DNA of 64,000 nucleotides from Escherichia coli. GTDB taxonomy: Bacteria > Pseudomonadota > Gammaproteobacteria > Enterobacterales > Enterobacteriaceae. This document shows, one piece after another, positions 29,001 through 32,000 of this stretch. Made by a program: the position numbers. The DNA lies in assembly GCF_046105845.1 (NCBI RefSeq), contig NZ_CP151004.1; one strand, 5' to 3'. Every line of letters starts with the position of its first letter. Position 1 is the first letter of the stretch.

Positions 29001-32000
29001 GACAACGTGCTTTGTGCGGGCTATCAGGCGTTTTATTCTTACTCTGCGCCGCATATGCGGGTGATGCGTGATCTGATAAAGCAGCATCGTTCTCCCATGG
29101 AGCTGATGACGATGCTGCGGTGACGTGAGCTTAAACGGGCTGCCCCTGATGCGACATCCGCGTCGCCAGCGGTAGCCAGCACAGCACGATCAACAATCCC
29201 ATTAAGGTCATCAACAACCCCAGGCTGCCCTGACCGGTTTGCGGCAACATCGCAGAGAGCGACGCCAGCACGCCGGAACCAATGTTTTGCAGACCGCCGA
29301 CCAGCGCGCCAGCCGTGCCCGCCAGGAAGGGGAACGGCTCCATCGCGCCGCTGGTCGCCAGCGGAAACAGCATCCCGGCACCGAAAAAGAACAGCGCGGC
29401 GGGAACGAGCAGCGTCCAGACATTCATCACGCCAAACCAGTCGGGGATCCACATCAGCAAGCCAGCCAGCAGGCAGCAGATAACCGACTGCCACATCAAC
29501 GTTGAGAAGCGTTTATTAGGACGTCCGGCAAACCATGCCCCAAAAAATGCCGCCGGAATCGGCAGAATAAACAAAATACTGACCGTCATACTGCTCAGCC
29601 CTAATACCGCGCCCATCAGCACGCCGGAGCAGGCTTCAAAGGCGGCAATCCCGGCCAGACCGCCAATCAGCATCAGCAAATAACAGTTAAAACCGCTGTT
29701 ACCGAAAAGCGTTTTATAACTGGTAAGCAGGCGCGTGCGCGGTGCGTCGACCGGACGCGTTTCCGGCATCCAGCGGGCCATACTGAAGGTCACACCGGCA
29801 CAAAGAACCAACAAAAAGAGATAACAGGCGCGCCAGTTCCACATCGTATCCAGCAGACCACCGATTAGCGGTGCGAGCAACGGACTGACAAGAATCCCCA
29901 TGTTTAACAAGCTGTTAGCGTGGCGCAACTGTGTCCGTTCATATAAATCACGCGGCAAAGTACGCGCCATTACACCGCCAACGCCGGTGCCCATGCCCTG
30001 CATCGCGCTGGCGGCAATCAATACCGTCAAACTGGAGGTCGTGACCGCGACCAGCGTTGCCAGCATAAAAATGGACATTCCGACGAGGATCACCGGTCGG
30101 CGACCGACACGGTCGGAAATCGGGCCATAAAACAGCTGCGAGACACCGTAAGTCAGCAGATAAGCGCCCATTACGCTCTGCACCGCCCCTTCACGGACGT
30201 TGAGATCGCGCGCCATATCGGCAATAGCTGGAATATAAATGGTTTGCGCCATCTGACCGACGGCCACGAGTAATACCAACATCAATAACAAATTGACGTT
30301 TCTATGCCTTTTCATTATCACGGATGCTTTTATAAAAATAATTAGAATAAGTCACTACGCATTCCCATAAATGCGGGAGAGGAATCTATCACATTGATAA
30401 ATGTTAGCCAGATATACGCCAGGAATGGGGAATTGTTTAGCGGCAGAATATGTAAACAAAAGCGGCAATAAATGTTGCCGGGAGGGATGGTAAGTCGGAT
30501 AAGATGCGTCAGCACCGCATCCGACACTAACCCGCACGCTAAATATAAAAGGGGAGCGGTTACCCGCTCCCCTTTGGTGCGACTTGAATCTGAATTACTT
30601 CAGGTATTTCAGAACAGCATCAAGCAGTTGCAGTGCTGCAACAATGAGTTTGAGGATAAGAATGGCGATATCCACCAGGCTCATACGCGTCTCCTGTGGT
30701 TCAGGAGCACTGCCAGCTGACGTACCTTTCCGCTGCCTGTTGCCAGCTGTTGTGCACGCGGTATCTCAAGGAGAAACGTTGTGCTTGTTGACATAACACA
30801 GTGTGCTCACGCGGGGTTAAGGCGCTGACGGCACCACCCGTTTCAGCCAGGACTTAGTGCGCCGGGTAACGATGCGGCCCCCGCATAACACATTGCGTAC
30901 AGTGATATTATAGAAGCTTACTGTATAAATAAACAGTAATATTTAGACAAAACGTAAAGTGTGATCGATACTCAACTATGCACTAAATACGTCAAAATTC
31001 GTGCTGAAATTGCGCGTTCTGCGCGGAACACGTATACTTTCAGTGTTGACATAATACAGTGTGGTTTGCGGTTACCAGCCGCAGGCGACTGACGAAACCT
31101 CGCTCCGGCGGGGTTTTTTGTTACCTGCAATTCAGTACAAAACGTGATCAACCCCTCAATTTTCCCTTGCTGAAAAATTTTCCATTGTCTCCCCTGTAAA
31201 GCTGTGCTTGTATAAATATTGTTAAACACAAAACCAACAAGGTCCCCAATGACTACTTCCATGTTCAACGCAAAACTACTACCAACTGCGCCATCCGCCG
31301 CAGTGGTCGTCGTGCGTGTGGTGGTGGTCGTCGGCAATGCGCCGTAGGGACTGGAACAACACACGATTCCAAAACCCCGCCGGCGCAAACCGGGCGGGGT
31401 TTTTCGTTTAAGCACCTCCCGGAAAGTCGGCCCAGAAGAAAAGGACTGGAGCATGGCAAGTTCGGGCACAACATCAACGCGTAAGCGCTTTACCGGCGCA
31501 GAATTTATCGTTCATTTCCTGGAACAGCAGGGCATTAAGATTGTGACGGGCATTCCGGGCGGTTCTATCCTCCCTGTTTACGACGCCTTAAGCCAAAGCA
31601 CGCAAATCCGCCATATTCTGGCTCGCCATGAACAGGGCGCGGGGTTTATCGCTCAGGGAATGGCGCGCACCGACGGTAAACCGGCGGTCTGTATGGCCTG
31701 TAGCGGACCGGGTGCGACTAATCTGGTGACCGCCATTGCCGATGCGCGGCTGGACTCCATCCCGCTGATTTGCATCACTGGTCAGGTTCCCGCCTCAATG
31801 ATCGGCACCGACGCCTTCCAGGAAGTCGACACCTACGGCATCTCTATCCCCATCACCAAACACAACTATCTGGTCAGACATATCGAAGAACTCCCGCAGG
31901 TCATGAGCGATGCCTTCCGCATTGCGCAATCAGGCCGTCCTGGCCCGGTGTGGATAGACATTCCTAAGGATGTGCAAACGGCAGTTTTTGAGATTGAAGC

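What the first reader, a model, noticed from the sequence alone, without database searches (positions are those of the whole stretch)
31249..31410. ivbL leader peptide and attenuator
The 32-codon leader ORF, with its run of Val and Leu codons, is followed about 25 nt later by a strong GC hairpin plus T-run. This is a classic translation-coupled attenuator controlling ilvBN, and the ORF track does not report it.
Basis: partly seen in the sequence, partly recalled or inferred. Interest (0 to 1): 0.3.

Follow-up and report, generated by a model that had tools for sequence, protein, structure and literature searches.

The report
ivbL leader and ilvBN attenuator
This is the long-known E. coli ivbL leader peptide and transcription attenuator, which switches the valine/leucine biosynthesis genes ilvBN on when those amino acids run short; it is real, correctly identified and ordinary.

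Summary
The observation and the interpretation are both correct. A 32-codon ORF (31249-31347, +; MTTSMFNAKLLPTAPSAAVVVVRVVVVVGNAP; 9 Val and 2 Leu codons) ends 27 nt before a GC-rich hairpin (31371-31403, -21 kcal/mol) with a T-run (31400-31409), about 45 nt upstream of ilvB-ilvN.

The region is 100% identical to ivbL/ilvB in many complete E. coli chromosomes and differs from K-12 at 2 of 341 bases; one of these changes codon 6 from Leu to Phe. The peptide passes the Pfam IlvB_leader and NCBIfam IvbL equivalog cutoffs.

An antiterminator (31338-31349 with 31376-31387, -21.9 kcal/mol) shares the terminator's 5' arm. In ribosome-footprint models it can form with a stall at codons 1-27 and is blocked once the ribosome reaches Val28 to the stop codon. 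A weaker protector helix and a hairpin with one compensatory pair are also conserved.

In 15 leaders from several genera all structures are kept. Measured on nine orthologues, the RNA core is 83-99% identical, while ilvB synonymous sites are 43-56% in non-Escherichia genera.

Published K-12 work shows Val/Leu-responsive attenuation. This is already known and of low interest. Side notes: a 21-nt deletion allele, and an uncharacterised low-GC insert after ilvN.

The parts
31222..31248 (+). Leader 5' UTR: CA-rich stretch (ACACAAAACCAACAAGG) and Shine-Dalgarno region. The 5' end at about 31222 is provisional.
   Evidence: The 5' end is inferred from my recollection that the K-12 leader RNA is about 188 nt; it was not tested here. 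The consensus promoter scan found no sigma-70 match for it. PMC11347164 reports ivbL as a GcvB target with a predicted site near the AUG in the 5' UTR. CA-rich composition recurs in the other genera although the sequence does not.
31249..31347 (+). ivbL leader ORF: 32 codons plus TAG, MTTSMFNAKLLPTAPSAAVVVVRVVVVVGNAP.
   Evidence: Pfam PF08049, 75.7 bits (cutoff 25); NCBIfam NF007579 equivalog, 80.1 bits (cutoff 60). Annotated ivbL in identical E. coli records.
31276..31281 (+). Leu10-Leu11, both CTA: the conserved leucine-sensing codons.
   Evidence: CTACT is invariant and the final A nearly invariant in 15 leaders. L10 and L11 are invariant in the peptide alignment, whereas position 6 varies. 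That CUA is a rare E. coli Leu codon is my own knowledge.
31285..31304 (+). Hairpin H1 (31285-31290 paired with 31299-31304) inside the ORF, just 3' of the Leu codons.
   Evidence: RNAalifold consensus. 100% of cells paired in 15 sequences. One compensatory pair (C-G in 8, U-A in 7) made by two synonymous third-position changes, in Thr13 and Ala18.
31303..31332 (+). Val run: codons 19-28 (GTG GTC GTC GTG CGT GTG GTG GTG GTC GTC). Contains a 10-bp direct repeat, GTGGTCGTCG, at 31303 and 31324.
   Evidence: Codon third positions here are almost invariant across genera.
31311..31324 (+). Region 1: 5' strand of the 'protector' helix (1:2).
   Evidence: RNAalifold. -10.3 kcal/mol in the window and -10 to -14 kcal/mol in 12 leaders. 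98.8% of cells paired in 15 leaders; 5 pairs vary on one side and stay paired.
31332..31349 (+). Region 2: 3' strand of the protector (31332-31344) and 5' strand of the antiterminator (31338-31344 plus 31347-31349). Overlaps the last ivbL codons and the stop codon.
31352..31371 (+). Small hairpin in the antiterminator loop (UGGAAC...GAUUCCA).
   Evidence: Kept with different sequences in other genera (GGAUC/GAAUCC, GAAUC/GAUUC).
31371..31387 (+). Region 3: 3' strand of the antiterminator (31376-31378 plus 31381-31387) and 5' arm of the terminator (31371-31383).
   Evidence: Antiterminator -21.9 kcal/mol. Sharing of bases 31376-31383 makes the two helices mutually exclusive. 97-100% of cells paired in 15 leaders.
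31390..31409 (+). Region 4: terminator 3' arm (31390-31403) and T-run (31400-31409).
   Evidence: Terminator -21.0 kcal/mol. 94.4% of cells paired in 15 leaders. A Term-seq 3' end, 'ivbL_t', is reported in K-12 by PMC9023263.
31453..33141 (+). ilvB, large subunit of acetohydroxyacid synthase I: the regulated gene.
   Evidence: 562 aa. NCBIfam NF006016 equivalog, 1084 bits (cutoff 870).
33145..33435 (+). ilvN, small (valine-sensitive) subunit.
   Evidence: 96 aa. NCBIfam NF006036 equivalog, 185.8 bits (cutoff 128).

Best explanation
This is the E. coli ivbL leader, a ribosome-mediated transcription attenuator of the ilvBN operon. RNA polymerase starts about 27 nt upstream of ivbL and transcribes a leader of about 188 nt. 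A ribosome translates the 32-codon ORF close behind the polymerase. If Val-tRNA and Leu-tRNA are plentiful, the ribosome runs to the last codons and the stop codon and physically covers region 2 (31338-31349). Region 3 is then left free to pair with region 4, and the terminator hairpin plus U-run releases the polymerase before ilvB. If charged tRNA-Val is scarce, the ribosome stalls in the Val run (nine Val codons). If tRNA-Leu is scarce, it stalls at the invariant CUA-CUA pair. In either case region 2 stays exposed and pairs with region 3 as soon as region 3 emerges. This antiterminator is as stable as the terminator, so it pre-empts the terminator and polymerase reads into ilvBN. What is shown here: sequence identity with ivbL, family membership, the existence, stability and mutual exclusivity of the helices, their dependence on ribosome position in a footprint model, and their conservation. 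What is inferred or taken from the literature: the kinetic order of events, the real transcription start, and the in vivo response to amino acids.
For: Identity: 100% identical over 341 nt to many E. coli chromosomes annotated ivbL and ilvB, and present in 5418 of 5426 complete genomes. 2 differences from K-12 MG1655, with the same gene order yidH-yidG-yidF-emrD-tisB-istR-ivbL-ilvB-ilvN. Family: Pfam PF08049 and NCBIfam NF007579 above their cutoffs over the full length. Structure: terminator -21.0 and antiterminator -21.9 kcal/mol share bases 31376-31383. In transcripts truncated before region 4, the antiterminator core has P=0.98 with a ribosome at codons 1-26, 0.65 at Val27, and 0 from Val28 to the stop. 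In a model that folds only RNA downstream of the ribosome, the terminator 5' arm is held by an upstream partner at P=0.69-0.90 for stalls at codons 1-27, 0.45 at Val28, 0.33 at Gly29, and 0.10 or less from Asn30 to the stop. Conservation: all 12 leaders of the first alignment keep 1:2, 2:3 and 3:4 with similar energies. Pair counts on the 15-leader alignment give 94-100% paired per helix, against 31-57% for the whole structures when partners are slid by 1-3 columns. In nine orthologous leaders the core from H1 to the terminator is 83-99% identical to E. coli, while ilvB synonymous third positions are 43-56% (73% in E. albertii) and the leader 5' part is 41-60% (92% in E. albertii). Literature: a K-12 ivbL-gfp fusion is repressed by Val and Leu but not by Ser, Ala, Thr, Gly, Arg or Pro (PMC11187965). 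ilvBN is listed among the attenuation-controlled operons (PMC1183508; PMC8406616). A Term-seq 3' end lies at ivbL_t (PMC9023263).
Against: At equilibrium the full-length leader favours the terminator (P about 0.87) wherever the ribosome is placed. The switch therefore works only as a kinetic competition, which these tools cannot simulate. The antiterminator and terminator stems are almost invariant, so covariation neither supports nor refutes them; the only compensatory pair is in H1. With no ribosome at all, the truncated-transcript model also predicts the antiterminator, so folding does not by itself explain termination without translation. The protector is weak (-10 kcal/mol) and never dominates the computed ensembles. 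How a stall at Leu10-11, 30 nt upstream of region 1, is transmitted is inferred only: it would melt H1 and let 31293-31305 pair with the Val-run strand. The promoter and transcription start were not confirmed.
Confidence: 0.94

Rival explanations
1. The short transcript that ends at the hairpin is itself the functional product: a small RNA, or a sponge or target for the sRNA GcvB. On this view, coupling to ilvBN through ribosome stalling is secondary.
For: ivbL is reported as a GcvB target whose level depends on GcvB and RNase E (PMC11347164). The 5' UTR is CA-rich in all genera. The RNA core is conserved far above synonymous-site background.
Against: The ORF, its Val run and the Leu pair are conserved as codons in every genus. 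The element always sits directly upstream of ilvB. Reporter data show Val- and Leu-dependent control of the downstream gene. sRNA binding is better read as an extra layer on top of attenuation.
Confidence: 0.03
2. IvbL is a functional hydrophobic micropeptide, and the downstream hairpin is simply the terminator of its own small gene.
For: The C-terminal 20 residues are almost invariant across genera. The family has its own Pfam and NCBIfam models.
Against: Synonymous positions in the Val run are also nearly invariant, which points to selection on the RNA. There is no separate promoter-like site between the terminator and ilvB. The terminator's 5' arm is complementary to the end of the ORF, which a plain gene terminator does not need. 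Natural alleles that delete 7 residues of the peptide persist.
Confidence: 0.015
3. Control is exerted mainly by Rho-dependent polarity or by mRNA stability (RNase E cleavage between ivbL and ilvB) when leader translation fails, not by the hairpin switch.
For: RNase E cleavage sites are reported between ivbL and ilvB. The ivbL terminator is reported as weak in a reporter assay.
Against: The hairpin plus U-run is a canonical intrinsic terminator among the strongest in the window, and a 3' end is mapped there. An equally stable competing helix is conserved.
Confidence: 0.015

Closest known systems
E. coli K-12 ivbL leader and ilvBN attenuator (b3672)
   Same: 339 of 341 bases identical, including every base of H1, the Val run, the protector, the antiterminator, the terminator and the spacer to ilvB. 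Same neighbours.
   Different: Codon 6 is TTC (Phe) instead of CTC (Leu), so there are 11 rather than 12 Val plus Leu codons. One further base differs in the istR-ivbL spacer, at 31124. The Phe6 allele is in about 16% of complete E. coli genomes, at a position that varies freely between genera.
trp operon leader (trpL), the textbook ribosome-mediated attenuator
   Same: A short leader ORF with regulatory codons; antiterminator and terminator of similar stability that share a strand; a ribosome at the stop codon blocks the antiterminator (PMC1183508).
   Different: Nine Val and two Leu regulatory codons rather than two Trp codons, so control is bivalent. The ivbL stop codon lies inside region 2. 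The upstream protector is weak, and an extra conserved hairpin (H1) sits between the Leu and Val codons.
ilvGMEDA (ilvL), leu (leuL), his (hisL) and thr (thrL) leaders
   Same: Runs of regulatory codons and chains of several alternative hairpins; multivalent control in ilvGMEDA.
   Different: A different peptide family and different RNA. No Rfam model matched this leader on its own strand, including those for other amino-acid leaders. ilvBN responds to Val and Leu only.
Corynebacterium ilvBNC leader / ilvB-II motif
   Same: A uORF-dependent attenuator upstream of an ilvB gene (PMC11857589 and PMC10272879, listed).
   Different: An unrelated sequence in a different phylum; I compared abstracts only, not sequences.

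Membership tests
IvbL, ilvB operon leader peptide (Pfam PF08049; NCBIfam NF007579) | The peptide scores above the curated cutoff of the family model over its full length. | tested here: met
   PF08049: 75.7 bits against a cutoff of 25, positions 1-32 of 32. NF007579 equivalog: 80.1 bits against a cutoff of 60.
IvbL, ilvB operon leader peptide (Pfam PF08049; NCBIfam NF007579) | Encoded immediately upstream of, and on the same strand as, ilvB-ilvN (AHAS I). | tested here: met
   The ivbL stop is at 31347 and the ilvB ATG at 31453. IlvB and IlvN pass their NCBIfam equivalog cutoffs. All orthologous loci show the same arrangement.
IvbL, ilvB operon leader peptide (Pfam PF08049; NCBIfam NF007579) | Nucleotide identity with the annotated ivbL of E. 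coli. | tested here: met
   100% identity to many RefSeq chromosomes annotated ivbL. 339 of 341 bases identical to K-12.
Ribosome-mediated transcription attenuators of amino-acid operons | A leader ORF enriched in codons for the pathway's end products. | tested here: met
   9 Val and 2 Leu among 32 codons. The Val run and the Leu pair are invariant across genera.
Ribosome-mediated transcription attenuators of amino-acid operons | An intrinsic terminator between the leader ORF and the first structural gene. | tested here: met
   A -21 kcal/mol hairpin followed by TTTTTCGTTT. A 3' end in K-12 is known from the literature only.
Ribosome-mediated transcription attenuators of amino-acid operons | An antiterminator that is mutually exclusive with the terminator. 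| tested here: met
   31338-31349 pairs with 31376-31387 at -21.9 kcal/mol and shares 31376-31383 with the terminator. Present in all 12 leaders folded individually; the pairing is kept in 97-100% of cells across 15 leaders.
Ribosome-mediated transcription attenuators of amino-acid operons | Ribosome position on the leader decides which helix forms. | tested here: met
   In silico only. The antiterminator is available for stalls at codons 1-27 and blocked from Val28 to the stop.
Ribosome-mediated transcription attenuators of amino-acid operons | Expression of the downstream genes rises when the cognate amino acids are limiting. | not testable with these tools
   Shown for the K-12 leader, which differs by one base within the leader, in PMC11187965; also stated in PMC8406616.
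Ribosome-mediated transcription attenuators of amino-acid operons | A polymerase pause that synchronises transcription with translation. | not tested
   H1 or the protector could be the pause hairpin. I recall published in vitro pausing data for ilvB but did not verify them.

The most novel reading that the evidence does not exclude
Natural alleles may retune the attenuator. The Phe6 allele in this window removes one of K-12's three Leu codons. More strikingly, a 21-nt deletion between the two GTGGTCGTCG repeats of the Val run (25-codon IvbL, seen in Shigella sonnei and several E. coli backgrounds) removes six of the nine Val codons and the whole protector 5' strand. It may act as a recurrent, slippage-driven switch of the ilvBN set-point.
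Probability: 0.15. Interest if true: 0.3.

Novelty: already known. Interest (0 to 1): 0.06.

Why it matters
It matters only as a correct annotation. The window carries an intact, canonical ilvBN attenuator, so AHAS I expression in this strain should be under normal Val/Leu control. The element is a textbook example and is used as a biosensor part in metabolic engineering. Three modest additions come from this work. No Rfam model matched this leader RNA. Its core is conserved across genera far beyond synonymous-site background. Natural deletion alleles of the Val run exist that would make a cheap natural test of the model.

Tried and rejected
A pattern anchored on the non-periodic GGNAAYGCNCCNTAR tail would have been better.

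The 42-aa TTG-extended ORF worked.

(3) Equilibrium folding of the full-length leader with ribosome masks always gives the terminator, so it cannot show the switch. Truncated transcripts were needed.

(4) Models that let RNA 5' of the ribosome pair across it gave uninformative results for the availability of region 2. They were replaced by folding only the RNA downstream of the ribosome.

(5) A long-range helix between the SD-proximal GGUCCC (31241-31246) and GGGACU (31347-31352), seen in the E. coli minimum-energy fold, was rejected as a conserved element. It is 80.7% paired, no better than a one-column slide at 82.7%, with the central pair broken in 9 of 15 sequences.

(6) Counting carriers of the 21-nt deletion with a junction query failed, because the tool joins the two flanking pieces.

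(7) One look-up, for P0072, found no contig.

(8) The sigma-70 consensus scan found no promoter for ivbL. By eye, TATAAA at 31211-31216 and a CRP-like half-site (CGTGA, 31143-31147) are candidates, but they are untested.

Full report
**Observation.** The + strand between 31249 and 31347 holds an ATG-initiated ORF of 32 codons ending in TAG. It encodes MTTSMFNAKLLPTAPSAAVVVVRVVVVVGNAP. The mechanical ORF list shows it only as part of a 42-aa TTG-start ORF, 31219-31347. There are nine Val codons (19-22 and 24-28, interrupted by Arg23) and two Leu codons (CTA CTA, codons 10-11).

- The GC stem begins 27 nt after the stop codon. The hairpin 31371-31403 folds at -21.0 kcal/mol with one bulged G and is followed by TTTTTCGTTT, 31400-31409.
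- The built-in terminator scan missed it because of the bulge.
- My own scan of both strands found 20 + strand candidates at -15 kcal/mol or better, against 3-13 in simulated sequence. Only three reach -21, and this is one of them.
- The leader as a whole folds 4.1 sd better than dinucleotide shuffles.

**Identity.** Window 31120-31460 is 100% identical to many complete E. coli chromosomes, where the features under the match are annotated ivbL and ilvB. 5418 of 5426 complete genomes carry it at 95% identity or more.

- Against K-12 MG1655 there are two differences in 341 bases: one in the istR-ivbL spacer, and T for C at 31264, which turns codon 6 from CTC (Leu) to TTC (Phe).
- About 16% of genomes (854 of 5418) are identical to the window over an 80-base stretch around this codon.
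- The neighbourhood is the K-12 one in reverse orientation: yidH, yidG, yidF, emrD, ysdE, tisB, istR, ivbL, ilvB, ilvN.
- Rfam finds istR at 30990-31119 with 143 bits. No Rfam model matches the leader on its own strand.
- The peptide passes Pfam IlvB_leader (75.7 bits, cutoff 25) and the NCBIfam IvbL equivalog (80.1 bits, cutoff 60). IlvB and IlvN pass their own equivalog cutoffs.

**Alternative structures.** They are present.

- In transcripts truncated before the terminator's 3' arm, the minimum-energy fold pairs 31338-31344 and 31347-31349 with 31381-31387 and 31376-31378. This helix encloses a small hairpin and folds at -21.9 kcal/mol. It uses bases 31376-31383, which form the core of the terminator's 5' arm. 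The two helices have near-equal stability, as described for trp II:III and III:IV (PMC1183508).
- With a ribosome footprint of -15 to +13 around the A site, the antiterminator core has probability 0.98 for a ribosome at codons 1-26, 0.65 at Val27, and 0 from Val28 to the stop codon.
- When only RNA downstream of the ribosome may fold, the terminator's 5' arm is held by an upstream partner at P=0.69-0.90 for stalls at codons 1-27. At codons 16-19 the partner is the Val-run strand itself. The value falls to 0.45 at Val28, 0.33 at Gly29, and 0.10 or less from Asn30 to the stop.
- At equilibrium the full-length leader prefers the terminator wherever the ribosome sits. The decision must therefore be kinetic: whichever partner of region 3 is available first wins. 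That is the classical model. Its kinetic step is inferred here, not shown.

**Upstream elements.** RNAalifold on 12 leaders adds two helices.

- H1 (31285-31290 with 31299-31304) lies just 3' of the Leu codons.
- A protector pairs the centre of the Val run (31311-31324) with 31332-31344, at -10.3 kcal/mol.
- A stall at Leu10-11 would melt H1 and let 31293-31305 pair with the Val-run strand (structures). That would keep region 1 off region 2. This relay would explain leucine sensing, but it is my inference.
- The protector never dominates the computed ensembles, and with no ribosome the truncated model still predicts the antiterminator. Folding therefore does not resolve the upstream half of the switch.
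- A long-range SD-proximal helix seen in the E. coli minimum-energy fold is not conserved.

**Comparative evidence.** A protein search with the TTG-extended ORF returned 55 proteins, all carrying PF08049. The named ones are called IvbL, mostly from Escherichia, Shigella, Enterobacter and Pluralibacter. A profile search of the 50%-identity representative library found 37. Peptides keep the Leu pair, 'TA', and VVVV(R/S)VVVVVG-x-AP, while the first nine residues vary.

I fetched the encoding contigs and aligned 15 distinct leaders.

- All 12 leaders of the first alignment, folded individually, keep 1:2 (-10 to -14), 2:3 (-19.7 to -22.5) and 3:4 (-20.7 to -24.8 kcal/mol).
- Pair counts over 15 leaders:

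| Helix | Cells paired | Variation |
|---|---|---|
| H1 | 100% | one compensatory pair, made by two synonymous changes |
| Protector | 98.8% | five pairs vary on one side and stay paired |
| Antiterminator | 97-100% | core invariant |
| Terminator | 94.4% | outermost A-U pair, L150, and one pair displaced by a register shift |

- When partners are slid by 1-3 columns, the whole structures are only 31-57% paired.
- The antiterminator and terminator stems hardly vary, so covariation says nothing for or against them.
- The invariance itself is informative. In nine orthologous leaders the core from H1 to the terminator is 83-99% identical to E. coli. By comparison, ilvB synonymous third positions are 43-56% identical (73% in E. 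albertii) and the leader's 5' part is 41-60% (92% in E. albertii).
- In the most distant leaders (L147-149), region 2 changes AAU to AGC and still pairs with region 1. The terminator's upper stem shifts register around a moved bulge.

**Literature.**

- A K-12 ivbL-gfp fusion is repressed by Val and Leu but not by six other amino acids whose codons occur in the leader (PMC11187965).
- ilvBN is listed among attenuation-controlled operons (PMC1183508; PMC8406616).
- Term-seq reports a 3' end, ivbL_t (PMC9023263).
- ivbL is a GcvB target, with RNase E cleavage sites between ivbL and ilvB (PMC11347164).
- The original 1982-84 sequencing and in vitro papers are not in the searchable library. The 188-nt leader length, the cAMP-CRP dependence and the rarity of the CUA codon are from my own recollection and are marked as such.

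**Verdict.** The finding is real, correctly located and correctly interpreted. It is the already-known ivbL leader and ilvBN attenuator, in a common allele with Phe at the non-conserved codon 6. Interest is low.

**What did not work.** The genome contigs pattern scan was wasted on a pattern that was too permissive. The junction query could not count deletion carriers.

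Noticed in passing
window 33500-36700: A low-GC (31-40%, against 51-57% in the flanks) insert of about 3.3 kb lies between ilvN and uhpA and is absent from K-12. 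It holds two paralogous ORFs: 33686-34993 (435 aa) and 35209-36705 (498 aa), 26% identical over 340 aa, E = 8e-28. Neither matches anything in Pfam, NCBIfam (435-aa ORF only) or PADLOC. At least 80% of the insert is present in 451 of 5426 complete E. coli genomes, the best match is only 98.8% identical, and it is annotated 'hypothetical protein'.
   Followed up: partly
window 31303-31333 (Val run); proteins P0041, P0048, P0051, P0052: Natural 25-codon IvbL alleles (…SAAVVVGNAP) occur in Shigella sonnei and E. coli. They correspond to a 21-nt deletion between the two GTGGTCGTCG repeats at 31303 and 31324. The deletion removes six of the nine Val codons and the protector's 5' strand. It appears on four peptide backgrounds, so it is probably recurrent. 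The number of carriers among complete genomes could not be obtained.
   Followed up: partly
window 31264: ivbL codon 6 is TTC (Phe) where K-12 has CTC (Leu). About 16% of complete E. coli genomes are identical to the window around it. The position varies freely between genera (F, L, N, Q, R, H), so a regulatory effect is unlikely.
   Followed up: yes
window 30494-31119: The type I toxin-antitoxin pair lies just upstream: tisB at 30595-30684 (-) and istR at 30990-31119 (+; Rfam RF01400, 143 bits). The istR terminator (about 31096-31119) ends roughly 100 nt before the presumed ivbL start. There is also a partial REP-like match (naRNA4, below its gathering score) at 30494-30526.
   Followed up: no
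window 31222-31412: No Rfam 15 family matches the ivbL leader RNA on its own strand. The only hits there are sub-threshold matches to the terminator on the opposite strand. Alignment A4 of 15 leaders could seed such a model.
   Followed up: no
L150:1173-1403: A metagenome contig at 3.9x coverage carries an ivbL-like leader with Ser in place of Arg23 and Ile in place of Asn30. The terminator stem is kept but is followed by GGGGATTATAG, with no T-run, and the protector has two broken pairs. It is either a degenerate attenuator or the result of sequencing errors.
   Followed up: no
L126:1-809 and L135:1300-1530: In one E. coli assembly an ISL3-family transposase replaces tisB/emrD upstream of ivbL. 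In one Enterobacter hormaechei assembly the sequence diverges right after the attenuator and ilvB appears truncated.
   Followed up: no
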